From the IMG/VR virus record IMGVR_UViG_3300017732_000002: 54,243 nucleotides of DNA. The stretch is one strand, 5' to 3'. Both the position numbers and the translations under genes were made by a program. This DNA is from an uncultured virus (IMG/VR IMGVR_UViG_3300017732_000002) (taxonomy: Duplodnaviria > Heunggongvirae > Uroviricota > Caudoviricetes). Below the pieces are notes generated by a model. It saw nothing but the letters and a program-made list of their open reading frames with translations. It searched no databases and was not told the DNA's origin. Numbering within the stretch: the first letter of the stretch is position 1; each line of letters starts with the position of its first letter. Below are positions 14,089 to 24,332 of this stretch, in pieces.

Positions 14089-14904
14089 TTACCCCATCAT
14101 ATCTAATACAGGCATTTCGTAGTTCAATCTAGATTCTTCCTCTAACCTTGTTTTTTCTTCTAGTGCTTCTGTCTTTATGTTATCGGGTTCAAGCACCACT
14201 CCGCCTGGCAGTGCGATACCACCAAACTTAGATAAGTTCTGTCCCCATTGATACTTGACCAAAGCAGTTGCATATCTTTTCAACCACATGTCATTGTATA
14301 TGTCTGTAAAATCATTTGGGTCTATCTTTCTGTAACACTCTATAATGATAAACTCACCTGCGTTGATTTGGTCAGCGTCCATGTCAAGATATAGTCTATT
14401 CATGTGAGTATTGTATCTGATAGGTGTTTGACCCACTAAGATTTGGTCTAACATACTGATATGCTGTTGAACCATTTCATAGTATAGAATACTAGTGTTT
14501 GTTAAATCGTATATGTCGTTGAGTCTTAATTGATATCTAATATCAAACATATTAAGATTATGTTTATCTGCAAATGGAAATATGTTTATAACTGATAATA
14601 TAAACTCAGGTAAAACAATATAGTTTTGTTGTTGTTTATATTGTTGGTCTGTTTTTGCGTGAGTACCAGCTGCGTTTTCTGTAAACGTTTCGTCTGTTTT
14701 TAATCCAGCGATATCGTTAGCACTCAATTGGTGTTTTAAATATGTTTTGATACTACCGTCATAATGATATTCACGAAAGTATTGTAATGCTTCGTCTACT
14801 CTGTCGTCCAGTTGGTCATCATCTATATTGATTTCTATTACTGGAGCTCCAAGAGCACGCTTGATGTACTGTTTAAATGTGTCTTTAGAATTTGGTGCGG
14901 CCAT
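14089..14904 (-). CDS. gp13: neck protein gp13
   Basis: LGAPVIEINIDDDQL.DR.DEALQYF..YHYDG, WLKRYATAL.K.QWGQNLSKF.G..LPGGV. Confidence 0.96.
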   Translation of the reverse strand: MAAPNSKDTFKQYIKRALGAPVIEINIDDDQLDDRVDEALQYFREYHYDGSIKTYLKHQLSANDIAGLKTDETFTENAAGTHAKTDQQYKQQQNYIVLPEFILSVINIFPFADKHNLNMFDIRYQLRLNDIYDLTNTSILYYEMVQQHISMLDQILVGQTPIRYNTHMNRLYLDMDADQINAGEFIIIECYRKIDPNDFTDIYNDMWLKRYATALVKYQWGQNLSKFGGIALPGGVVLEPDNIKTEALEEKTRLEEESRLNYEMPVLDMMG

Positions 14905-14936
14905 AGTAGTATTTTCCTTTAATACTACTATTTATA
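14903..14936 (-). promoter_or_regulatory. late promoter TATAAATA overlapping an 11-bp hairpin that sequesters the gp13 translation start
   Basis: Perfect inverted repeat ATAGTAGTATT (14903-14913) / AATACTACTAT (14921-14931); loop AAAGGAA on minus strand; promoter at 14929-14936. Confidence 0.75.
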
Positions 14937-14940
14937 AGAA

Positions 14941-15210
14941 TTATTCTTGGAAGTAAGTTTTATTCTGTAGTCTATCGATTTTGGTATCGATTCTGTCTAA
15001 GGTATCCATTAATCTTTCTAGTTCTTTGGATAGTTGTTCACGTGTTACGTAGTCTTTGGCGACTTCTTCACGTGTTTTATTGATAAGAATATCAATTCTT
15101 TTTTGTTCAGATAATAGGTTACGGATTAAGAAACCTAAAGGCATGAGAATAAAGGTTAGAACTATATTCCAAAGTAAGTGTGCGTCAAAGGCTATTAGGT
15201 TTTCTTCCAT
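14941..15210 (-). CDS. small membrane-anchored coiled-coil protein
   Basis: Hydrophobic LLWNIVLTFILMPLGFLI then heptad-like C-terminus; CATAAATA at 15216-15223. Confidence 0.75.
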   Translation of the reverse strand: MEENLIAFDAHLLWNIVLTFILMPLGFLIRNLLSEQKRIDILINKTREEVAKDYVTREQLSKELERLMDTLDRIDTKIDRLQNKTYFQE

Positions 15211-15226
15211 ACGGTTATTTATGGAA

Positions 15227-15988
15227 TTAACGTATTGGATTTCCTCTTTCGTCTAAATTAAATGAAAATTCATCAGGATTCCATTCATCAACAGTAAAGT
15301 CTTGACCAAAGTAACCAGCACCATTATCAGGAAAGAATCCAGTTGGGCCTACCACGTCATGTAAATCCATATTGAACGATATGCTATATCTTTCTTTGTC
15401 AGTCATATTAGGTTCAACCATATGCATTAAACCACTAGAAAATATATGAATATCTCCTGTTCTAGGTTGAACGTCCCAATTAGTTCTAACTCTTTGGTGG
15501 TGCGGAAACATAGACAGAACTTTAGAGTCTGTATCAATTGCAGAAAAGTTACCTTCATCTCCGTCTGCTTTTAGATATAAAACACCTGAATACCAACAAC
15601 CATTATGAGTATGAGGTCTATTCCAAGACATAGTTTCATTTATGTTTGCCCATGAATTGCCTGGCCTCATTTTAAGACCATTAGAATTTTGAATACCATG
15701 AAAAGGTAAAACCTCGTCAGAAAAAAACTTACTGATACGATTCATACATTTCTGAAAGACTGGACTACTTTCACAACCGTCATTAGACTGCCAACCCGAC
15801 CTATGCATTGTAGCAGGGTTAGGTGAATTAGATACAAGTCTACCTTTAGGGTCACGCTTACGCATTGCGTCAACTTCTGCAACTAACATTTCGTTATACT
15901 CCAAATCATATCCTTGACTTTCGTCAAGATTTGGGTCTAACATATTTCTTTGAAATACGTAATGTGGAAACAGTAATCTAACTGACAT
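15227..15988 (-). CDS. 2OG-Fe(II) oxygenase (TIGR02466-like)
   Basis: GWQS, NSWANIN, NRPHTH, SGVLYL, IFSSGLMHMVEPN..DKERYSISFN; start moved to MSVRLL (15988) after GGGGA SD. Confidence 0.85.
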   Translation of the reverse strand: MSVRLLFPHYVFQRNMLDPNLDESQGYDLEYNEMLVAEVDAMRKRDPKGRLVSNSPNPATMHRSGWQSNDGCESSPVFQKCMNRISKFFSDEVLPFHGIQNSNGLKMRPGNSWANINETMSWNRPHTHNGCWYSGVLYLKADGDEGNFSAIDTDSKVLSMFPHHQRVRTNWDVQPRTGDIHIFSSGLMHMVEPNMTDKERYSISFNMDLHDVVGPTGFFPDNGAGYFGQDFTVDEWNPDEFSFNLDERGNPIR

Positions 15989-16616
15989 CTTCCCCGTACC
16001 TTCCTCGGTCACGATTACCGTCACCATTTAATTCAGTTAAGTCTTGTTGTTTTTCTTTATAGTCTTCTTTCTTCTTCATGAAGTGACTTGCCCAAGCACG
16101 ACCAACAATTTCATCACTACCGTAAATTCTTTGAATTAACTCTTGTTTCAAAATGTCATTTTCAATTACAGTGTTTGTTATTACACATTCTATAGTATCA
16201 CCTACTTTAATTGCTTTGTCATAAGTGACTCTCAAATCTGTAATTGGAACAAACCTTTGACAAAAGAATAATCCAAACACACCAAAAGTATAATCTGCAA
16301 CAGCAGCTCTATAAGGGCCACCCACATACTTGTAAGGTGCTGGTTGGATTGAATGCCACCACCTCGTTTCCCATACTGTTGACAGTGTATTATGGTCTTG
16401 TTCACCTTTAAAAGTTTTCCAACCACAATAAGTATCTTCGTGCCAGTTCATAGAATTCCAAATATAAAAAGCAGGTGTACTGGCGTCTGTACCTACATCA
16501 AAACCTTCTATTTGAACATTAGTTTGTCCTTCGTATAAACTATCGATATCAACTCCAACATTGTTATCACCTTTAGTTTTATTAGCCTCGAACTCTGTAT
16601 ATCCTTCGTATTTCAC
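15978..16616 (-). CDS. putative hotdog-fold (thioesterase/dehydratase-like) protein
   Basis: VGGPYRAAVADYTFG ... TDLRVTYDKAIKVGDTIEC resembles the PaaI-type GG..A..AD...G / L.V.Y..P...G pattern. Confidence 0.55.
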   Translation of the reverse strand: MKYEGYTEFEANKTKGDNNVGVDIDSLYEGQTNVQIEGFDVGTDASTPAFYIWNSMNWHEDTYCGWKTFKGEQDHNTLSTVWETRWWHSIQPAPYKYVGGPYRAAVADYTFGVFGLFFCQRFVPITDLRVTYDKAIKVGDTIECVITNTVIENDILKQELIQRIYGSDEIVGRAWASHFMKKKEDYKEKQQDLTELNGDGNRDRGRYGEDVS

Positions 16617-17482
16617 TTTTTCATTTCTCCTGTTTTTGGGTCAAAGGGGCATTCATTAGGTGGAGCGTCCTTAAAGTTTTTTGCTTTAGTCGTCCACATG
16701 TATTTTCTGTAAAATCCGCCAGGCACCTGTCCGTCTGGCGAACTTGCATCACCCTCAACTTCACACAATTCAGATATTGAAGGTTTGCCGTATTCACTTG
16801 TTAAATGACTTACTTCATTTATATATGCACTCCCGTCCATGTTAATATAAGACGCAGTCCACTGTTCTCTCCTATAAGGAACTATCTGTACTATGGGTGT
16901 TCCTTTAGGTATAACAAAAGACTTGTCACTTAATGGATACATAATAATCTGCGTATTATCTGTTAAGGTATTAAACATATCAGTATCCATTGTTCCTTGC
17001 CATGTTCTAAAATATTTATTCTGATGTAAAAAGGGGTCAAGATATAAACAAGAATAGCCAGGCGGTGTTACTACAGACCAAGGTACTCTAAATTTGAATG
17101 CGTCATGAGGATTTTCATCAGAACCATCTCCTTTTAAGAATGAGAAATTATCATTCATTAGTTGGTGTTTTGAATGTGTAGGTGAAGCATATGAAGCTTC
17201 AAAATTTTCACCGTCAGGCGGAACGGTAGCATGCCAATCACCACCACTTACAAGAGTTTGATTGAATTCACAATGTATATCTCTATTTGTTGCGATATAA
17301 TATCCTGTTGATAACCAATCATGCATTGCAGGACAAGCTCTTAATGATATCCCAACCACCCCTTTATCAATCATATGCACTTTAGATTTTTTCCACCAAT
17401 CGGGTTGCATTTTACTTGCAGGTACAGGACGCATTAATTCAAATGCGGTATCATTATATGTTTTAAACTCAATTGTCGGCAT
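16613..17482 (-). CDS. DUF6065-like / dUTPase-like beta-fold protein
   Basis: CPAM.D.L..GY, PWSVVTPPGYSCLY..P, G..DTD, IPKGTPIVQIVPYRRE.W; family commonly adjacent to phage oxygenases. Confidence 0.6.
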   Translation of the reverse strand: MPTIEFKTYNDTAFELMRPVPASKMQPDWWKKSKVHMIDKGVVGISLRACPAMHDWLSTGYYIATNRDIHCEFNQTLVSGGDWHATVPPDGENFEASYASPTHSKHQLMNDNFSFLKGDGSDENPHDAFKFRVPWSVVTPPGYSCLYLDPFLHQNKYFRTWQGTMDTDMFNTLTDNTQIIMYPLSDKSFVIPKGTPIVQIVPYRREQWTASYINMDGSAYINEVSHLTSEYGKPSISELCEVEGDASSPDGQVPGGFYRKYMWTTKAKNFKDAPPNECPFDPKTGEMKK

Positions 17483-18230
17483 ATCTCATATATCTCTGAT
17501 ATCTTAGTTGTCTTGGTGCAACTTCTTTTCTTTGTTCTTCTTGAGGTACTAATCTTATTTCTGAACCACGCAATACACATGAACGTCTATCTACATATCT
17601 TGCAGAAGGTTTTGGTGCTTCTGCACCATGAGGTATCCTTCCGTCAAACATAAGTAATCTGTTTGGTTTAAATTCTATTCTTCCTATTTCGTGTTTGTTC
17701 ATTTCTTCTGCAACACCGCTACCAATATTTTCATCATACACTCTTAAGTCACCGCCCCATTTAGGATTCCAAAATGTATTTAAGTAATACAAAAAAGATA
17801 TGTTCCACTCACATTCAGGCGCACAATCATTATGACATGTACCGTCTAGTCCTTGAGTTTGTGAATTCAAACCCATGTAATCAAACTCAACCCAACGAAA
17901 ACCAAAGTCATTCATTACTCTAGTATTAAAATATGAAGCAAAGTAAGTATCTGAACGATTTATCTGATTTCCTTGACACCAATCTACGTGTTCATGATTA
18001 GGAACATCTCTAAAAAATGTTCCACCCCAAAAGGAATGATGTGGTAATCCTGTTTTACTATCGGACGCAACTTGATTAGTTTTAGACCAAAGGTTACTTG
18101 CGACTAATGACTTATCCCAATGGTGGTGTAATTCGTCCGCCAAATAATTATCGATAACATGAAAGGTATCCCCTAACGGATAATTATCTTTCGTTAGTCT
18201 GAAAGGTTTGTCGTGGTAGACAACGTTCAC
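17469..18230 (-). CDS. 2OG-Fe(II) oxygenase
   Basis: HND (HxD), LYYLN..W.PKWGG.L, FKPNRLLMFDGRIPH, distal Arg. Confidence 0.88.
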   Translation of the reverse strand: MNVVYHDKPFRLTKDNYPLGDTFHVIDNYLADELHHHWDKSLVASNLWSKTNQVASDSKTGLPHHSFWGGTFFRDVPNHEHVDWCQGNQINRSDTYFASYFNTRVMNDFGFRWVEFDYMGLNSQTQGLDGTCHNDCAPECEWNISFLYYLNTFWNPKWGGDLRVYDENIGSGVAEEMNKHEIGRIEFKPNRLLMFDGRIPHGAEAPKPSARYVDRRSCVLRGSEIRLVPQEEQRKEVAPRQLRYQRYMRYADN

Positions 18231-18231
18231 T

Positions 18232-18789
18232 TTAACAAATATTATTTGGTGATACTGTTTCAGGCAACACTACTACGTATTCGTCAAAAGGTTTCAAATG
18301 GTCTTCTCTTGTTGCCATTATTTCTTCTTGCGTTTGAAAACATATTGACCAAGTTGCATCTGCATATTCTAAAACTCTACGTGCTTCTGACCTATACGTA
18401 TGATTAGAACCTTCTCGTCCAGCATATACACATTCGTTAAGATTTCTAAAATTATATCTTATTGCACAGTCTTCTATTTTGTCGTGAGTTAAATTTTCTA
18501 AGTCTGCCATAAACTGATTGTTTAAGGACATACCATTTGGTGGTTCTGACTGTTCAATAAACTGTTCGATAGCGTCTCTTTCTTCGTCTACAAGTGCATG
18601 TTTATCCTGTTCATCGAAAGGAATGTCATCGTTGTAACCGACAATTTTAAATTCGCTGTCTCCGTCATAAACAATAACGTCAAAATCAAAACCTAAATTT
18701 GGTTTTTCGACATTGTCAAATTGGTATCTCAAACCGTTTGGTTTGGTGATGTGAAGATTGTTATCTTCTGTAAAAACAAGTTGATTCAT
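18232..18789 (-). CDS. hypothetical protein, tail-fibre-assembly/chaperone-like C-terminus
   Basis: A.RYNF.NL.ECVYAG...HTYRSEARRVLEYADATW resembles phage fibre-associated proteins; follows fibre genes. Confidence 0.45.
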   Translation of the reverse strand: MNQLVFTEDNNLHITKPNGLRYQFDNVEKPNLGFDFDVIVYDGDSEFKIVGYNDDIPFDEQDKHALVDEERDAIEQFIEQSEPPNGMSLNNQFMADLENLTHDKIEDCAIRYNFRNLNECVYAGREGSNHTYRSEARRVLEYADATWSICFQTQEEIMATREDHLKPFDEYVVVLPETVSPNNIC

Positions 18790-18807
18790 AATATATTACC
18801 TCTATTC

Positions 18808-20334
18808 TTATTTATTGAGTATATTTTTATACTTTTCGTATAACTTTAATTGCGATATGTCACTACAGTCCATATCTTTTATCCATGGGCCACCTCTTGT
18901 ATAATGCACCGCATGATATCTTTTATCTTCGTCTGACATGCCTTCTGTAAAGACATATTTGTCAGGGATTCTATCAATACTATCAGTCCATTCAAACTGG
19001 TGTAAGTATTGACCACTCGCAGTATTTACAACTTCGGGTGTTAATTTTTTACAGTCTTCATGAGCATTATTAAATATCATGAAACTAGACCACAACTTTT
19101 TAGGATACATAACATTCTCTTCACCACCCATTTTAGTCTTAGACATTTTTTCTAGTTCATATTCATATTGAACACATGCTACTGCATTGTCGGGGTGTAG
19201 AAAATAAAACATTTCATACCAAGGTTGTTTCCATACAAAATCATTATCTATGAATATACTAAACCCTTCATAATTTTCTAAGTATGGAATTAAGAATCTG
19301 CTATAAGTAAATTCTGTCGATTGATTTGCGTACTCTCTAGTATATTCGGGAATCTTTGATACGTCAAGTAGTTTTATTTCAGGTTCAAATCTACACTGTG
19401 AGTCATTAACTGCTCTTTGACATGCTTGATTAATAGAATTTATTTGTACGTCTGTTATATCTTCATGTCTTGAATCATACCCAAGATATATGTTTAAAGG
19501 TTTTCCATTGAATTTTTCTGATACCTTTTTAGAAAAATCCTTTACTTTTTCTCTCCATTGTCTATCGGGTTCTGACCTTCCATTATTCCATTCACCCGAA
19601 GTTTGCACTTCAATACTAGTATAATTGTAAGATACATGTAATTGTGTCGGTCTCATGCCGTCAAACTGTGGTGTAGTAAAACTTCTTAACCACTCATCAG
19701 TAGTTAAAGGTTCTATCCAATCAAAGGCGTTATATGCGTCCCAAACAATACAGGTCATACTTTCATCGTCTGTCGCACCGAATACACCTTGTCGTACTGA
19801 GCCAGGGTGTATATGTGGGTTGTATTCAATTCTATCGTTTCTTCCGCTTTTTTGTAATACAATAGTTATCGGTTGATTTAAACCATTCTTCTGAATATCA
19901 TGTAATAACCAATGTCCTTTACACCCATGATAAAATCCCGAACCAGTTATATCATTTCCATCTTCATTTCCACCAGTAATATCTCCCGTTGCGGTAGTTA
20001 TTTTTTTCATACTAGCACCGTAAGTATGGAAATTAGGAATATACTTTAAATAATTAGACGCTTGATAGTCTAATCCAAATGATTCCAAAGGCATGAATCC
20101 GCACTTTTTAATATCACCCCAAGTTACTAATTTCACATTAGGAACATAAACATTATCTACAAAGTATTGTACAACTTTATATGTGTCACATTCAGTATCA
20201 ATAGAACCGTCTTCGTTAACAGGAATATTGCCAATATGGTGACCGCTCTTATAAAAGAGTTGTCTACGAACACTTTCTTGCGTCCAGTCTAGGCGAAATG
20301 GAATAAAATCAATTAAATGGTCAATTTCTGTCAT
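18808..20334 (-). CDS. fusion: ParB/Srx-like N-terminal domain plus GT-A glycosyltransferase (GT8/CDI-like)
   Basis: C-term IYLGYDSR, STEFTYSRFLIPYL, FIDND (DxD), YPKKLWSS, HYTRGGPW; N-term LLHDIQKNGLNQPI...HPGSVR. Confidence 0.8.
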   Translation of the reverse strand: MTEIDHLIDFIPFRLDWTQESVRRQLFYKSGHHIGNIPVNEDGSIDTECDTYKVVQYFVDNVYVPNVKLVTWGDIKKCGFMPLESFGLDYQASNYLKYIPNFHTYGASMKKITTATGDITGGNEDGNDITGSGFYHGCKGHWLLHDIQKNGLNQPITIVLQKSGRNDRIEYNPHIHPGSVRQGVFGATDDESMTCIVWDAYNAFDWIEPLTTDEWLRSFTTPQFDGMRPTQLHVSYNYTSIEVQTSGEWNNGRSEPDRQWREKVKDFSKKVSEKFNGKPLNIYLGYDSRHEDITDVQINSINQACQRAVNDSQCRFEPEIKLLDVSKIPEYTREYANQSTEFTYSRFLIPYLENYEGFSIFIDNDFVWKQPWYEMFYFLHPDNAVACVQYEYELEKMSKTKMGGEENVMYPKKLWSSFMIFNNAHEDCKKLTPEVVNTASGQYLHQFEWTDSIDRIPDKYVFTEGMSDEDKRYHAVHYTRGGPWIKDMDCSDISQLKLYEKYKNILNK

Positions 20335-20360
20335 AATAAAAATCTCACTTATGTGAGTAT

Positions 20361-20367
20361 ATTTAGT
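20361..20367 (-). promoter_or_regulatory. late promoter variant CTAAATA upstream of glycosyltransferase cluster
   Basis: tatttag directly after the stop of the 457-aa repeat gene; small CTCAC/GTGAG hairpin downstream. Confidence 0.6.
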
Positions 20368-20370
20368 GTG

Positions 20371-21744
20371 TTACGAAATAGGTGTTGCAGGCCATTGTTG
20401 TTGTAACACACCGTCCCAACGTTGAACAGGGTTTTGATAGTTCTGCTGGTATGGGTACGGGTTCTGATAGTTCTGTTGGAACGGATACGGGTTCTGATAG
20501 TTCTGTTGGAACGGATACGGATTTTGATAATTCTGTTGGAACGGGTATGGGTTCTGATAGTTCTGTTGGAAATTATATGATGTCTGTGCGTTAGCAGGAT
20601 ACGGATATCTTCCTTGTGCTTGATACGTGCTAGGTTGTCTTGCCTGATACGTAAACGGTGTTCTATAAGACGCCTGATAAGTAGACGGAATTCTATAAGA
20701 CGCTTGATATGTAAATGGATATCTTGCCTGATATGTAAACGGAGTTCTATAAGGCGTCTGATAAGTAAATGGTGACTGTGAGTTCGCAGGATATCTTCCA
20801 CGTGCATTGTTTTGATATGTGCCTGGCTGTCTTGCATTAGCAGGGTATCTTCCTCTTGCGTTATTCTGATAAGTTCCTGGCTGCCTTGCGTTGGCAGGAT
20901 ATCTTCCACGTGCATTTGTATTCGTGTTAGCAGGATACGTTGTATTAGCAGGATACCTACCCCTTGCACTTGTAGTAAAAGGATTCTGACCGTTATAAAC
21001 TATCCCGTCTTTCATGAATGAGAAAGTGAAAGGTTGTCTCGCAGGTGTAATAAATGGATATCTTGCCTGATACGTTGTAGGTGCCTGATATGTTGTAGGT
21101 GCAATAAACGGATATCTTGCCTGATACGTAAATGGTGACTGTGAGTTAGCAGGGTATGTAAATGGATATCTTGCCTGATACGTAAATGGACTTTGTGAGT
21201 TAGCAGGATAAGTAAATGGATATCTTGCCTGATAAGTTCCTGGCTGTCTCGCATTAGCAGGATATGTGCCTGGCGATTGTCCGTTAGCAGGATATCTTCC
21301 TCTAGCATTTGCAGGATATGTGCCAGGCGTCTGAGCGTTAGCAGGATATGTGCCTGGCTGTTGTCCATTAGCAGGATAAGGTGCCTGTGCATTGGCAGGA
21401 TATGGATATCTTCCTTGCGCCTGATAAGTGCTTGGCGACTGTCCTGATGCAGGTCTTTGTGCTTGAAGTCTACCAGTCGCAGGTCTTCTTGCAGGTGTTG
21501 TTCCTATTGCAGGTCTTTGTGCCTGTAATTGACCAGTTGCAGGTCTTTGTGCTTGAAGTCTACCAGTTGCAGGTCTTCGAGCAGGTTGTTGTGTATCTTC
21601 TTGACCACTAGCATTATTCCACCCGTCAGGCGTTTTAATATAGACTTGCTCTACTGCACGCCAACCGTCAGGCGTTTTAACCCACGCACCTTGAGTTGCG
21701 TTCCAGCCTGTAGGTGTTTTAACCTTCTGTGAGCCTGATGCCAT
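20371..21744 (-). CDS. Tyr/Pro/Gln/Arg-rich repeat protein 1; predicted long beta-hairpin virion appendage
   Basis: N-terminal (V/I)KTPxGW x3 module; repeats RPATGxLQAQ, YQARYPFT, ARGRYPAN, QQNYQNPYPF in mirror order. Confidence 0.85.
   Translation of the reverse strand: MASGSQKVKTPTGWNATQGAWVKTPDGWRAVEQVYIKTPDGWNNASGQEDTQQPARRPATGRLQAQRPATGQLQAQRPAIGTTPARRPATGRLQAQRPASGQSPSTYQAQGRYPYPANAQAPYPANGQQPGTYPANAQTPGTYPANARGRYPANGQSPGTYPANARQPGTYQARYPFTYPANSQSPFTYQARYPFTYPANSQSPFTYQARYPFIAPTTYQAPTTYQARYPFITPARQPFTFSFMKDGIVYNGQNPFTTSARGRYPANTTYPANTNTNARGRYPANARQPGTYQNNARGRYPANARQPGTYQNNARGRYPANSQSPFTYQTPYRTPFTYQARYPFTYQASYRIPSTYQASYRTPFTYQARQPSTYQAQGRYPYPANAQTSYNFQQNYQNPYPFQQNYQNPYPFQQNYQNPYPFQQNYQNPYPYQQNYQNPVQRWDGVLQQQWPATPIS
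20425..20572. repeat. five 30-bp tandem coding repeats (QQNYQNPYPF)
   Basis: gggttctgatagttctgttggaacggatac-like units; boundaries approximate. Confidence 0.9.
21445..21590. repeat. five 30-bp tandem coding repeats (RPATGxLQAQ)
   Basis: gcaggtctttgtgcttgaagtctaccagtt-like units; boundaries approximate. Confidence 0.85.
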
Positions 21745-21767: not shown

Positions 21768-24332
21768 TTAAGAGTATAAAATCCATAAGTCGCCGACTTG
21801 TCCGTCTCCACCACTTGGAGCAGAAGTTGATTGGTAAATGTTCCTTGCAACTTGTCCACTATTACTTGCGTAGTCGGTGTGTATCTGATTAAAGGTCACG
21901 TTACTGTTTGTAGCAACTGCTTGTCCGATTGCAACTTCGGTTCCTGATACAGAAACACCTGTTCCTGCAGTCAAGGTTGTTACGTTTCCAGTTCCGTCAA
22001 AAGATACTCCGTTGATTGTTCTTGCATTTTGTAATGCAGTTGCTGTAGCGGCATTACCTGTTGTTGAACCTGAAGTTCCACTAACATTACCTGTGACATT
22101 ACCAGTTAAGTTACCAGTAACGTTACCAGTTAATGCACCTGTAAATGTAGTAGCAGTTACTCCTGCATTAAAAGTAGCTGCACCTGCTTCAGACATATCA
22201 AGTGTAAGAGCAGTTATTTCTGAACCGCCATCGTTGCCTTTAAATATTAAATCGCCATCTGAATTTTCTGATTTAATTGTATTACCATCAACAAAAATAT
22301 TGTCCACATATAAATGGGTAAACGGATAACTTGAATTACCAAGGGGGAATGCAACATTTGGTGATAAACCAACATTTGCAGAAGCTAATAACCATGAAGC
22401 TCCACCAGATTTAAATATCAACATATCATCAATAGGTGAACCAGCAATTGATGTATCACCATCTACATCAAAAATAATTGCATTACCATTTGTATCAAGA
22501 GGTTTTCCTAATAATATTGTTTCTGCTGAGTCTGTAGTATTAAAAGTTAAATAGTCATTACTACCTTCTGAAATGGTAAGAGCAGTTGCTGAGTTATCGG
22601 CTATAGATATCTTTGAACCGTCAATACTAATATCGTCTACTGTTAATGCTGTAAGAGTTCCAAGACTTGTAATGTTTGTTTGAGCTGCACCTGTTACTGT
22701 AGCTGCAGTTCCACTAACGTTACCAGTTACGTTACCAGTCAAGTCACCAGTTACGTTACCAGTTACGTTACCTTCTAAGTTTGCTACAAGTGTTCCTGTA
22801 GTAACTGTTAAGTCACCTGTACTTGCACCTGTAAATGAACCTGTACCTACTAAGAATTTGTCTGCACTTTCATCCCAACCTATAAATGCGTTGTCTGAGT
22901 CTCCTCTTTCAAGAACAATACCCATATCATTTGCAGGTGTTCCTGTTGTACCATTTCCTAACTCAATCAATCTATCTGTAATTGTTGAGTTTGTAGTGTC
23001 TAAAGTTGTGGTTGTTCCGTTTACATCTAAGTTACCTGTAACTGTCAAATTACCTGTTGCAGCTACGTCTGCGAAAGTTACATTTGAACTTGTTGCAACT
23101 GCTTGTCCAATTGCAATTTCACCACTTGATACAGTAACACCTGTTCCACCTGAGATATGTGCTCTTACTTCTGACGCACTTGGGCCTGTATATGTGATAA
23201 CACCTGTAGAGTTATTGTATGCAAGTGAACCGTCTCCACCTGAATCTGTTACGGAAACCTTTCCTCTGATTGTTGCGTCTGTAATTGCAAGGTCTACCGC
23301 ACCGTCACCAGCATCGTCATATGTTGCAGTGATATTTGTGTGTGAACCGTTTGTAGCAAGTTGTGCACCAACAATGTCTTCTATTTCTTCTTCTGTTTTA
23401 CCCGAAGACGCAATTGTTAAAGTATTAGCTGCATCGTCATATGTCAATGACATGTTTGTACCAGCAGTCAATAGTGCGTTTACTCTATCGTCTACTCTTT
23501 CGTTGGTAAGGAATAAATTTGTTGAACCTTCTGTGATATTATCAGAAGTACCAGCAAGACCACCTAGTGTAGTAGAGAAGTCTAAAGTACCGTCACCGTC
23601 TTCATATGTAACTGTGATACCACTTTCAGTATTTCCTGATACCATTGCACCAACGATATCTTGAATTCTTTCTGCGTTTACCGTGACATCACCAGCTGAT
23701 ACAGTAAAGTCTGTTCCGTCAAATGTTGCGACACCAGCGTTTGTTTCTGTTGCAAGTTCCGCTGAATATGTGACTGTGCCTGAACTTTCTGCAACATCTA
23801 TACCTTCACCACCAGCAAAGGTTATTGTTCCACCTAATGCTGTCGCAGTTGTATTACTGCCGTCTGAAACTGTAATTGATGAATTTGATAGTTTATCGTT
23901 TGCAATAGAACCTGCCAACATGGCATTAGTAACACCACTTGCTTTAATTCTTAATGCGTCTGAATCTGTTTCGATTGAACTATCGTCTACTCCGACTGAT
24001 AGAACACCACTTGAATGTGCAAGACCGTCACCAGCTACTGAACTATCCAGTGCGAGTGTTATCGCACCACTTGTTCCACCACCTGAAAGACCGTCACCAG
24101 CAGTTACGCCCGTGATATCCCCGACTTGTCCGTTGATTGTTAATGTGCCTGCACTATCATCATATGAGGTAGAAATACCTGTTCCTGCAACGATTAATGC
24201 GTTGACTCTGTCGTCAACCTTTTCGTTAAAATCACTTCCTAGTGCGGCTGTTTGTATAAGACCTGAGCTGTTGATTACCTCGGTTGTACCGATACTCAGT
24301 CCGTTTTTTACATGAAAATTCTTTGCAGCCAC
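21768..24332 (-). CDS. tail fibre-like structural protein (854 aa, GTG start)
   Basis: NFHVKNGL N-terminus, Gly/Thr-rich, GNVTGN repeats, ATALQNARTINGVSFDGT, C-term SAPSGGDGQVGDLWILYS. Confidence 0.8.
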   Translation of the reverse strand: MAAKNFHVKNGLSIGTTEVINSSGLIQTAALGSDFNEKVDDRVNALIVAGTGISTSYDDSAGTLTINGQVGDITGVTAGDGLSGGGTSGAITLALDSSVAGDGLAHSSGVLSVGVDDSSIETDSDALRIKASGVTNAMLAGSIANDKLSNSSITVSDGSNTTATALGGTITFAGGEGIDVAESSGTVTYSAELATETNAGVATFDGTDFTVSAGDVTVNAERIQDIVGAMVSGNTESGITVTYEDGDGTLDFSTTLGGLAGTSDNITEGSTNLFLTNERVDDRVNALLTAGTNMSLTYDDAANTLTIASSGKTEEEIEDIVGAQLATNGSHTNITATYDDAGDGAVDLAITDATIRGKVSVTDSGGDGSLAYNNSTGVITYTGPSASEVRAHISGGTGVTVSSGEIAIGQAVATSSNVTFADVAATGNLTVTGNLDVNGTTTTLDTTNSTITDRLIELGNGTTGTPANDMGIVLERGDSDNAFIGWDESADKFLVGTGSFTGASTGDLTVTTGTLVANLEGNVTGNVTGDLTGNVTGNVSGTAATVTGAAQTNITSLGTLTALTVDDISIDGSKISIADNSATALTISEGSNDYLTFNTTDSAETILLGKPLDTNGNAIIFDVDGDTSIAGSPIDDMLIFKSGGASWLLASANVGLSPNVAFPLGNSSYPFTHLYVDNIFVDGNTIKSENSDGDLIFKGNDGGSEITALTLDMSEAGAATFNAGVTATTFTGALTGNVTGNLTGNVTGNVSGTSGSTTGNAATATALQNARTINGVSFDGTGNVTTLTAGTGVSVSGTEVAIGQAVATNSNVTFNQIHTDYASNSGQVARNIYQSTSAPSGGDGQVGDLWILYS

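What the first reader, a model, noticed from the sequence alone, without database searches (positions are those of the whole stretch)
20437..21582. Self-complementary protein: ~190-residue antiparallel hairpin written in a Gly-versus-aromatic pairing code
Seen in sequence: fold the 457-aa protein at its central FSF-MKDG-IVY turn so that residue i faces 491-i. Then 18 of the 21 stem glycines face Tyr/Phe: G61/Y430, G71/Y420, G81/Y410, G91/Y400, G101/Y390, G111/Y380, Y113/G378, G127/F364, G131/Y360, G141/Y350, G149/Y342, G155/F336, G159/Y332, Y175/G316, Y193/G298, Y211/G280, Y229/G262, F239/G252. The other three face Ser. The remaining N-arm Tyr face Ala/Asn/Thr. There is no register slip from about residue 55 to 436. 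Motifs behave as complements: ARYPF with ARGRY, TYQA with YPAN, RPATG 10-mers with QQNYQNPYPF 10-mers. Established: cross-strand aromatic-Gly pairs stabilise antiparallel sheets, and the T4 gp37 tip is a needle of three long hairpins. Inference: a single hairpin of roughly 60 nm (about 3.3 A per residue), probably oligomeric, forming a new type of phage filament organised like a nucleic-acid stem-loop.
Basis: partly seen in the sequence, partly recalled or inferred. Interest (0 to 1): 0.95.

Follow-up and report, generated by a model that had tools for sequence, protein, structure and literature searches.

The report
Fold-back coded zipper fibre protein
A late gene of an uncultured marine T4-like phage encodes a protein whose two 195-residue halves match residue by residue when one is read backwards, and relatives keep this match as their lengths change, so the chain most likely folds back into a very long thin rod of a design not found described.

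Summary
All 18 Gly/aromatic pairs at i+j=491 exist. Gly alone does not fix the register, because 487 gives 17 pairs.

The wider rule is aromatic versus small (Gly/Ala/Ser). It singles out register 491:
- 62 of 68 Tyr/Phe face Gly/Ala/Ser.
- The next best register gives 48.
- None of 3 x 1000 periodicity-keeping shuffles reach 62.

Pro faces Gln/Arg/Thr and never Pro.

Among 15 distinct full-length relatives (421-561 aa), the central Lys sits exactly at the midpoint (2k+1 = L+34) in 12 and is off by one in 1. Indels occur as mirrored pairs in both arms. The two exceptions are the target sequence with one repeat block missing from a single arm.

In other phages the same genomic site holds two genes whose products match in the same antiparallel register.

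AlphaFold2 gave only low-confidence coil, so the physical fold is unproven.

Best reading: an intramolecular antiparallel fold-back rod, about 65 nm if the strands are beta and extended. It is closed by a four-residue MKDG loop and by an N-domain/C-tail clasp, and is probably a virion fibre.

Earlier notes of this scan found the same protein on other DNA and read it the same way. I found no description in the paper library.

The parts
20371..21744 (-). Whole ORF, 457 aa plus stop: the fold-back repeat protein
   Evidence: ORF. (translation; composition has no His and no Cys). An identical protein is on 4 further viral contigs, L001, L002, L003 and L007.
21598..21744 (-). N-terminal domain, residues 1-49: three KTPxGW hairpin units. 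Proposed attachment and clasp domain.
   Evidence: Nearly invariant in the 7-sequence subfamily alignment and conserved in split-gene relatives. AlphaFold2 gives six short strands with block pLDDT 60-86. No Pfam or PHROG hit.
21016..21597 (-). N arm, residues 50-243: RPATG 10-mers, then YPAN..PGT 10-mers, then TYQARYPFTYPANSQSPF 18-mers
   Evidence: Strict period 2 within 55-245: Gly 13/13 and Tyr/Phe 28/28 at odd positions, Pro 31/31 at even positions. Faces the C arm in register 491.
21004..21015 (-). Apex, residues 244-247 (MKDG), with K245/D246 at the centre of register 491. M244 may be the old start codon of a formerly separate second gene.
   Evidence: 2k+1 = 491 for K245. A conserved central Lys-(x)-Gly is present in all 15 relatives. 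Loop classes. Likeness of MKDGIVYNG to the N-termini of second genes of split pairs.
20422..21003 (-). C arm, residues 248-441: ARGRYPAN..PGTYQNN 18-mers, then TYQASYRTPF-type 10-mers, then QQNYQNPYPF 10-mers
   Evidence: Within 246-436, Tyr/Phe 40/40 at even positions and Pro 25/25 at odd positions. C-arm aromatics face Ala 27, Gly 12, Phe 1.
20374..20421 (-). C-terminal tail, residues 442-457 (RWDGVLQQQWPATPIS). In register 491 it faces residues 34-49 of the N-domain: proposed clasp.
   Evidence: Invariant in the 7-sequence alignment. The same tail ends the second gene of split pairs, whose C-terminus faces residue 34 or 35 of the first protein in 37 of 43 pairs. Facing list.
21768..24332 (-). 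Upstream neighbour, 854 aa: fibre-like structural protein. Context, not part of the hairpin.
   Evidence: PHROG structural protein and tail fibre families. Syntenic in 12 of 12 related loci checked.
18808..20334 (-). Downstream neighbour, 508 aa, with a glycosyltransferase domain in its C-terminal half. Context.
   Evidence: tblastn 32-38% identity over residues about 280-490 to annotated sugar transferases of cultured phages. Atlas lead to GT8-like clusters, score 0.97. Syntenic in 12 of 12 loci.

Best explanation
The chain folds back on itself. Residues 50-244 and 247-441 run antiparallel in one exact register (i+j=491), so that about 196 cross-strand pairs form.

The sequence has a strict two-residue period. 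On one face every Tyr/Phe lies against a small residue (Ala, Gly or Ser) of the other arm. On the other face every Pro lies against Gln, Arg or Thr, and Asn lies against Thr.

The irregular order of 8-, 10- and 18-residue units in one arm is mirrored in the other. That mirroring makes the register unique, much as sequence fixes the register of an RNA stem.

One end is closed by a short loop (MKDG). The other end is closed by the conserved C-terminal tail, which lies against the N-terminal beta domain.

What is shown:
- the complementarity;
- its uniqueness;
- its conservation through mirrored, compensating indels.

What is inferred:
- the two arms are beta strands of a two-stranded ribbon, about 65 nm long if fully extended at 3.3 A per residue;
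- Pro sits at the non-hydrogen-bonded positions of that ribbon;
- the aromatic face is buried by association of several hairpins;
- the rod is a virion fibre held to the particle by the N-domain/tail clasp.

My odds: antiparallel pairing in this register about 0.9; beta ribbon about 0.65; virion fibre about 0.6.
For: 1. Unique register. 62 of 68 aromatics face G/A/S at S=491. The next best register gives 48. 0 of 1000 in each of three periodicity-keeping nulls reach 62. The parallel control reaches at most 35.

2. Pair table over 11 relatives, 2462 pairs:
- Observed: A-Y 420, P-Q 390, N-T 228, P-R 210, A-F 175, G-Y 162.
- Avoided: Y-Y 0 (mean 78 in 20 shifted registers), P-P 1 (mean 110), A-A 0 (mean 85).

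3. Arm lengths co-vary. Among 15 distinct full-length relatives of 421-561 aa, the central Lys obeys 2k+1 = L+34 exactly in 12 and is off by one in 1. Register L+34 is the best aromatic-small register in 14 of 15. In the 13 in-register proteins, 84-97% of aromatics are paired.

4. Mirrored compensating indels:
- L006 vs L009: N arm +10 at 109 and -2 at 32 residues from the turn; C arm -2 at 30 and +10 at 110.
- L006 vs L086: N arm +10, +2, -6 at 127, 83, 37; C arm +10, +2, -6 at 128, 78, 20.

5. RPxxG units and QQxYQ units are equal in number in 13 of 15 relatives.

6. The gene holds no inverted repeat at DNA level, so the symmetry lies in the protein.

7. Split orthologues at the same syntenic site. 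In 43 distinct gene pairs the best antiparallel offset puts the C-terminus of protein 2 opposite residue 34 (29 pairs) or 35 (8 pairs) of protein 1. There are no aromatic-aromatic pairs in 35 of 43. Module end of protein 1 against length of protein 2: r=0.95, n=38, range 190-446 aa.

8. Strict period 2 in both arms and in 57 relatives. A K-G two-residue loop is closed by an aromatic-phase pair in 8 of 13 relatives, and a four-residue loop occurs in 4 of 13 including the target. By standard hairpin geometry (recalled) this fits Pro lying in the non-hydrogen-bonded pair class.

9. The gene sits in the late structural module of a T4-like myovirus, next to a fibre-like protein.
Against: 1. AlphaFold2 with an alignment gave coil for the repeats: pLDDT about 40 for the full length (mean 45.1). 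For the central 140 residues it gave only a six-residue hairpin at pLDDT about 60 (mean 41.8), whose strands imply register about 493, not 491.

2. Two of 15 relatives carry an indel in one arm only. L077 lacks 30 aa at the distal N arm. L078 lacks 36 aa in the C arm. If real, the rod tolerates an overhang or a bulge.

3. Pro makes up 14% of the chain (63 of 457), which is unusual for a regular beta structure.

4. A lone two-stranded ribbon of about 195 residues per strand with an exposed aromatic stripe has no solved precedent that I know of.

5. There is no direct evidence that the protein is in the virion, and no cultured phage in the collection has the gene.

6. The 15 relatives are kin and share repeat units, so the pair counts are not independent events. 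The shifted-register controls are internal to the same sequences.
Confidence: 0.7

Rival explanations
1. The antiparallel pairing is real but lies between chains. The N arm of one chain pairs with the C arm of another (a swapped dimer or an open polymer), not within one chain.
For: In the split-gene relatives the same pairing is necessarily between two chains. Nothing computed here tells intra-chain from inter-chain pairing in the fused form.
Against: The centre is a conserved short K-G or x-K-x-G element placed exactly at the midpoint in 12 of 15 relatives, as expected of a tight turn. A swapped form would not need the loop to be short or exactly central.
Confidence: 0.12
2. The two arms lie side by side in register but not as hydrogen-bonded beta strands. 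They would be extended or polyproline-like strands held by side-chain packing, as the alpha/PPII fold-back stalk of streptococcal antigen I/II is held.
For: High Pro content in both arms (63 of 457 residues). AlphaFold2 gives no strands in the repeats. Antigen I/II shows that two distant repeat arrays of one chain can zip into a long stalk without a beta sheet (PMC3707005, passages read).
Against: The periodicity is strictly 2 over about 190 residues per arm, with no exception among 59 and 65 Pro/Tyr/Phe positions. That fits a strand and not the three-residue period of PPII. The central loops look like classical two- and four-residue hairpin loops.
Confidence: 0.15
3. It is a disordered low-complexity protein. 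The mirror pattern is a by-product of repeat evolution and has no structural meaning.
For: Low-confidence AlphaFold2 models. Low-complexity composition rich in Q, P, A, Y, T.
Against: No mutational process that I know of makes equal-sized indels at mirrored distances in two arms, or in two separate genes. There is no DNA inverted repeat. Y-Y, P-P and A-A pairs are almost absent at the true register only.
Confidence: 0.03
4. One reading: glycine versus aromatic is the pairing code that sets the register.
For: 18 of 22 stem Gly face Tyr/Phe at 491. Register L+34 is the top or tied-top Gly-aromatic register in 12 of 15 relatives.
Against: Registers 487 and 477 score 17 and 16. Ala is the partner in 44 of the 62 aromatic-small pairs. 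Repeat regions of the split-gene first proteins hold only 0-15 Gly against 24-50 Tyr/Phe. In L086 and L082 another register beats L+34 on the Gly-only score.
Confidence: 0.1

Closest known systems
Needle (D10-D11) of the phage T4 long tail fibre protein gp37
   Same: It is a phage fibre part, and a Gly in a strand packs against a Phe of another strand. In gp37, G921 in a beta-strand packs on F970 of another subunit in the trimer core, and substitutions at G921 are predicted to clash (PMC6957217, passages read).
   Different: gp37 is a trimer whose needle is held by seven iron ions bound by His (PMC6957217, passages). The needle construct used there spans residues 799-1026. The target has no His or Cys at all and no sequence match to fibre families. 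It has about 195 residues per arm and a residue-by-residue complementarity with compensating indels. Its oligomeric state is unknown.
Fold-back stalk of streptococcal antigen I/II (A3VP1 fragment, PDB 3IOX)
   Same: Two repeat arrays of one chain associate lengthwise into a long thin fibril. Pro contacts aromatic residues (PMC3707005, review passages read). That the two arrays lie far apart in the sequence with a globular domain between them is my recollection.
   Different: There an Ala-rich alpha-helix winds with a PPII helix, and the fragment is 155 A long. Here both arms carry Pro every 6-8 residues and have a strict period of 2. There is no sequence relation. The protein is a bacterial surface adhesin, not a phage protein.
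Cross-strand aromatic-glycine pairs in antiparallel sheets and designed beta-hairpins
   Same: An aromatic ring lies over a Gly or small residue on the neighbouring strand. Short K-G type turns are present. This is recalled knowledge; a search listing only was seen.
   Different: Known cases are single pairs or hairpins of about 10-20 residues. Here about 60-85 such pairs line one face of a putative ribbon of about 185-250 residues per strand.
Hint / bacterial intein-like autoprocessing domains
   Same: Many first-gene relatives end in GGGGC followed by a Hint/intein-splicing domain that ends in HN (P0001: PF14890 E 8.9e-12, PF01079 E 4.1e-8; sequences).
   Different: The target has no Hint domain (no Pfam hit). 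Its ORF ends 36 bases before the next gene.

Membership tests
T4 gp37-type needle (long tail fibre tip) | Sequence similarity to gp37 or tail fibre families | tested here: not met
   No Pfam family at E<=0.1 and no PHROG at E<=0.01 for the 457-aa protein. tblastn against 50,697 phage records gave no match, with the low-complexity filter on.
T4 gp37-type needle (long tail fibre tip) | His residues that coordinate iron along the stem | tested here: not met
   The protein contains no His (composition). The iron sites of gp37 are described in PMC6957217 (passages).
T4 gp37-type needle (long tail fibre tip) | Homotrimer | not testable with these tools
See Tried and rejected.
Long antiparallel beta-hairpin (two-stranded ribbon) | Two segments complementary in one antiparallel register, joined by a short loop | tested here: met
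   Unique register 491. The central Lys is at the exact midpoint in 12 of 15 relatives. Two- or four-residue loops occur in 12 of 13 in-register relatives.
Long antiparallel beta-hairpin (two-stranded ribbon) | Two-residue side-chain periodicity along both strands | tested here: met
   Pro and Tyr/Phe have opposite parity without exception in both arms and in 57 relatives.
Long antiparallel beta-hairpin (two-stranded ribbon) | Backbone in beta conformation with cross-strand hydrogen bonds | tested here: inconclusive
   AlphaFold2 gave coil at pLDDT about 40, and only strands 240-245/248-253 at pLDDT about 60.
Hint / intein-like autoprocessing proteins | Hint domain with an N-terminal Cys and a C-terminal HN | tested here: not met
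   The target has no Cys and no Pfam hit. The domain is present in relatives.
Collagen-like / PPII triple helix | Gly at every third residue (period 3) | tested here: not met
   The period is 2. Gly make up 29 of 457 residues, and in the arms they keep one parity (N arm 13 of 13 odd, C arm 8 of 9 even) at spacings set by the 10- and 18-residue units.
WD40 repeat proteins (N-domain only) | Match to WD40 profiles; several blades forming a propeller | tested here: not met
   No Pfam hit for the target. phmmer of residues 1-52 finds WD40-repeat proteins through many short stretches. That is a likeness of motif in a domain of about 45 residues, too short for a propeller.

The most novel reading that the evidence does not exclude
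This is a protein that works like a nucleic-acid stem. A pairing alphabet (Tyr/Phe with Ala/Gly/Ser, Pro with Gln/Arg/Thr, Asn with Thr) is written on two strands of irregular repeat units. It sets a single register over about 200 pairs, so fibre length can evolve freely through compensating insertions and deletions. The zipper can be made from one chain (this gene) or from two chains (the split genes of related phages). In the split forms that carry a Hint domain exactly at the turn end, beside the N-terminus of the partner chain, the Hint domain may cut itself off or even join the two chains into a closed hairpin.
Probability: 0.5. Interest if true: 0.95.

Novelty: categorically new. Interest (0 to 1): 0.9.

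Why it matters
If the fold-back zipper is real, it is a new way to build a long, thin protein rod of defined length. The register is set by a residue-level complement code and not by a globular fold, a coiled-coil heptad or a collagen triplet.

It would be a natural example of compensatory covariation in a protein on the scale known from RNA stems.

It would also be a ready template for designing rods or two-chain zippers of programmable length.

For phage biology, it points to an undescribed fibre type. The gene sits at a conserved site of the structural module of abundant uncultured marine T4-like phages, beside a conserved set of a glycosyltransferase and two 2OG-Fe(II) oxygenases.

Tried and rejected
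- Complex prediction, three copies of residues 1-245: no answer. Score 0.00, controls not run. In hindsight the piece lacked the C arm, so it could not test the fold-back. It is no evidence either way.
- Full-length AlphaFold2 with a 42-row alignment dominated by split-gene relatives, and the central 140 residues with 11 turn-centred rows: both gave low confidence.
- Fold search of the full model against 48,161 PDB representatives: no match with Z>=2. This was expected for a mostly low-confidence model.
- Pfam and PHROGs on the protein: nothing.
- tblastn of the whole protein and of the N-domain against cultured phages, and megablast of the locus: no match.
- Protein atlas: only unnamed viral clusters below 0.9.
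- Two word-index protein searches returned only split-gene-type relatives at 29-51% identity and none of the fused subfamily. The fused relatives came from the contig scans instead.
- My first idea was a parallel trimeric triple-beta-helix built of 8- and 10-residue units. I dropped it once the mirror register and the arm covariation appeared.
- Self-complementarity within single-module Hint-bearing relatives: only about half of the aromatics pair at the best register. They are therefore not hairpins on their own; they pair with the neighbouring gene's product.
- Pelagibacter phage Mosig has a glycosyltransferase like the neighbour's, but in a non-structural context with no repeat genes nearby.
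- RNA-library contigs (X15, X16) cover parts of the gene exactly. DNA can be present in such libraries, so transcription is not shown. The uncovered parts mean nothing.
- Joints listed by read laying had short sides (20-45 letters) in a repeat-rich gene, so I did not use them.
- Paper searches found no description of this family. One search was a mistyped term, corrected.
Full report
WHAT IS THERE

The finding lies in one ORF, window 20371..21744 on the minus strand, 457 aa. The stated coordinates cover residues 55-436.

The window is the late structural module of a T4-like myovirus. Major head, scaffold, portal, sheath, terminase, neck and baseplate proteins are all recognised by PHROGs. The major head protein is 64-67.5% identical to those of Methylophilales phage Melnitz and of the Pelagibacter phages HTVC008M and Mosig. 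The host is unknown.

The protein is rich in Gln, Pro, Ala, Tyr and Thr and has no His or Cys. It matches no Pfam or PHROG family. The upstream gene encodes a fibre-like structural protein.

CHECK OF THE OBSERVATION

All 18 of 18 listed Gly/aromatic pairs are present at i+j=491. The stem holds 22 Gly, not 21: 18 face Tyr/Phe, 3 face Ser and G247 faces M244.

On this Gly-only score 491 is the best register (18). But 487 scores 17, 477 scores 16, and 441 and 493 score 15. Plain shuffles never reach 18 (0 of 1000). A shuffle that rotates each of seven repeat blocks, and so keeps the periodicity, reaches 18 in 36 of 2000 trials when parity is kept and in 7 of 2000 otherwise. Taken alone, and chosen after looking at the sequence, this is suggestive and no more.

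Part of the score has a simple cause. Both arms have a strict period of two. In residues 55-245, Gly (13/13) and Tyr/Phe (28/28) are at odd positions and Pro (31/31) at even ones. In 246-436, Tyr/Phe (40/40) are at even positions and Pro (25/25) at odd ones.

THE WIDER RULE

Printing the chain folded at register 491 shows that almost every Tyr/Phe faces Ala, Gly or Ser and almost none faces another aromatic. In numbers:
- 62 of 68 aromatics face G/A/S, with one aromatic-aromatic pair.
- The next best register has 48. Same-parity registers average 28.6, sd 6.3.
- Block rotation (even or any) and permutation of 8/10-residue chunks give maxima of 52, 54 and 44. None of 1000 trials each reaches 62. 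The two arms laid in parallel reach 35 at most.
- N-arm aromatics face Ala 17, Gly 6, Asn 2, Thr 1, Tyr 1, Ile 1. C-arm aromatics face Ala 27, Gly 12, Phe 1. Pro faces Gln 34, Arg 15, Thr 7, Ile 1, Asn 1.

So Gly is a minority partner, and the other face of the putative ribbon is coded too. There is no inverted repeat in the DNA, so the symmetry is a property of the protein.

RELATIVES OF THE SAME ARCHITECTURE

Scans of viral and metagenome contigs gave 15 distinct full-length proteins with the same N-domain and the same C-terminal tail, 421-561 aa long. Nine partial ORFs were set aside. Among the 15:
- All have a central Lys-(x)-Gly element.
- The central Lys k obeys 2k+1 = L+34 exactly in 12 of 15. 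This is the register in which residue 49 faces the Arg of the tail, 491 in the target. It is off by one in L005.
- Register L+34 is the best aromatic-small register in 14 of 15. In the 13 in-register proteins 84-97% of aromatics are paired, with 0 or 1 aromatic-aromatic pairs against means of 9-14 at other same-parity registers.
- RPxxG units at the start of the N arm and QQxYQ units at the end of the C arm are equal in number in 13 of 15.

Separate alignment of the arms of closer pairs shows indels of equal size at mirrored distances from the turn:
- L006 vs L009: N arm +10 at 109 and -2 at 32; C arm -2 at 30 and +10 at 110.
- L006 vs L086: N arm +10, +2, -6 at 127, 83, 37; C arm +10, +2, -6 at 128, 78, 20.
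- L004 vs L005: N arm -10 and -6 at 132 and 117; C arm -16 at 109.

I pooled 11 proteins. I left out L083 and L084 as near-duplicates, and L077 and L078 as out of register. The pair table of 2462 pairs reads A-Y 420, P-Q 390, N-T 228, P-R 210, A-F 175, G-Y 162 and P-T 114. Against that, Y-Y is 0, P-P 1, A-A 0 and A-G 1, where twenty shifted registers give means of 78, 110, 85 and 46. These proteins are kin and share units, so the counts are not independent events. The shifted registers are the control.

THE EXCEPTIONS

L077 and L078 are the target's own sequence with one block missing from one arm only. L077 lacks 30 aa (three RPATG units) at the far end of the N arm, and its C arm is 100% identical. 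L078 lacks 36 aa (two 18-residue units) in the C arm, and its N arm is 100% identical.

Both come from metagenome contigs and remove near-identical tandem units, so they may be collapsed assemblies or recent variants that tolerate an overhang or a bulge. I could not decide which.

The target's own version is well supported:
- It is identical on four further viral contigs.
- Leaving out two runs that may be the source, 12 DNA runs of 8 studies hold 0.97 of its sampled words. Seven of those studies are viral metagenomes of one year and perhaps one campaign.
- In the two runs I laid, error-free contigs tile the gene. One of 821-824 bases spans the turn and the 18-residue arrays of both arms.

SPLIT FORMS

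Earlier notes of this scan reported the same protein on other DNA, read as a fold-back zipper, and reported two-gene versions. I tested the second claim on my own loci.

- In 12 of 12 loci checked, the site between the fibre-like gene and the 508-aa gene holds either the fused gene or two adjacent repeat genes.
- In 43 distinct gene pairs, the best antiparallel offset puts the C-terminus of protein 2 opposite residue 34 (29 pairs) or 35 (8 pairs) of protein 1. That is the same constant as in the fused form. Six pairs have other offsets, three of them from a different family. There are no aromatic-aromatic pairs in 35 of 43.
- The share of aromatics facing G/A/S is lower there (0.47-0.79), so other partners are in use. 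I did not work these out.
- The end of the repeat module of protein 1 and the length of protein 2 correlate with r=0.95 (n=38; 190-446 aa).
- Protein 2 ends in the same RWDG..WPATP tail.
- Single-module proteins are not self-complementary.

The target is therefore the single-chain form of a two-chain zipper. Its M244, at the apex, may be the former start of gene 2: MKDGIVYNG resembles N-termini such as MVEGNRQVVYKANG.

HOW IT MOST LIKELY WORKS

Shown: two arms complementary in one antiparallel register, conserved through compensating change.

Inferred:
- The strict period of two fits strands, not PPII or helices.
- In 8 of 13 in-register relatives a two-residue K-G loop is closed by a pair of the aromatic phase. 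In 4 of 13, the target among them, a four-residue loop (MKDG, YKGG, IKQG, IKTG) does the same.
- By ordinary hairpin geometry (recalled), the closing pair is hydrogen-bonded. The aromatic/small phase would then be the hydrogen-bonded pairs, and all Pro would sit at non-hydrogen-bonded positions. There the missing NH of Pro costs nothing, and Pro blocks further strands from adding at the edge.
- One face is then a continuous aromatic-on-small stripe, which probably needs burial by association of several hairpins. The other face is polar.
- At 3.3-3.4 A per residue, 196 pairs give 65-67 nm. Twist or coiling would shorten this.
- The conserved tail faces residues 34-49 of the N-domain, which AlphaFold2 models as short strands. 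I read this as a clasp that also serves as the attachment end.
- Relatives of protein 1 carry variable domains at the turn end: Hint domains or other globular ends. This fits a distal tip.
- The gene's place, between baseplate and fibre genes and the neck genes, is where T4 has its short fibres and whiskers (recalled). A virion fibre is the likeliest role.

COMPARISON WITH WHAT IS KNOWN

In it a strand Gly (G921) packs on a Phe (F970) of another subunit in the core of a trimer. It is held by His-bound iron (PMC6957217, passages). The target has no His and no sequence relation.
- The antigen I/II stalk shows that two repeat arrays of one chain can zip into a long fibril, but through an alpha-helix and a PPII helix (PMC3707005, passages).
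- Aromatic-Gly cross-strand pairs are known from ordinary sheets (recalled).
- None of these has a residue-by-residue complement over about 200 pairs with compensating indels.
- Six searches of the paper library found no description of the family. The library lacks most subscription journals, so this is not proof.

LIMITS

- The fold itself is unproven. AlphaFold2 gave coil at pLDDT about 40 for the repeats. It gave only a short central hairpin at pLDDT about 60, in a register near 493.
- Oligomeric state, virion location and function are inferences.
- RNA-library contigs match parts of the gene, but that does not show transcription.

Noticed in passing
L015-L063, L065-L070 (for example L030:2383-3279 and L030:3292-4041): In related phages the same syntenic site holds two adjacent genes. 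Their products match antiparallel in the same register as the fused protein: the C-terminus of protein 2 faces residue 34 or 35 of protein 1 in 37 of 43 pairs.
   Followed up: yes
First genes of 18 of 43 split pairs (for example L021:5073-6368; P0001): A Hint/intein-like domain (GGGGC ... HN) follows the repeat module directly. It therefore sits at the 'turn' end, beside the N-terminus of the partner chain. The N-termini of protein 2 read MP(I/Q)G.. or MA.G.., with no Cys. Self-cleavage or chain joining is possible but untested.
   Followed up: partly
window 14089-20334, minus strand: A conserved cassette lies downstream of the fibre gene. It comprises the 508-aa protein with a glycosyltransferase half, a 185-aa protein, a 2OG-Fe(II) oxygenase (PF13640), a 289-aa protein and a second 2OG-Fe(II) oxygenase (PF13759). 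Most of the set is present in all 12 loci checked. These are possible modifiers of a Pro/Thr-rich fibre.
   Followed up: partly
L077:2501-3781 and L078:2501-3763: Two metagenome contigs carry the target's protein with a 30-aa or a 36-aa block missing from one arm only and are otherwise identical. They are either collapsed repeats or real variants.
   Followed up: partly
P0004, P0028, P0031, P0041, P0044, P0099: Some first-gene relatives end in globular C-terminal parts of about 100-250 aa instead of a Hint domain. Pfam gave no family above its cut-off for the three scanned (P0004, P0028, P0099). These may be variable tip domains.
   Followed up: no
P0046, P0066, P0068, P0078, P0082 and others; L065, L072, L073: A second family starts MADEIYINTG... 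It has two repeat modules around a middle part of about 100 aa and a different tail (..HQSVPNAQF..). P0077 combines this N-terminus with the RWDG..WPATP tail. In L065, L072 and L073 the best antiparallel offset is -31 or -32.
   Followed up: no
window 21598-21744, minus strand (residues 1-49): phmmer of the N-domain against 1.84 billion representatives gives 174 hits at E<=0.001. The best hits outside the family are WD40-repeat proteins, matched through up to 13 short stretches. This is a likeness of motif (xPDGW), not membership.
   Followed up: partly
window 20349-20969 and 21012-21392 (minus); 20382-20594, 20812-21021, 21381-21611 and 21529-21732 (plus): Long ORFs in other frames lie inside the gene. 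I take them for by-products of the low-complexity repeats and not for genes.
   Followed up: no
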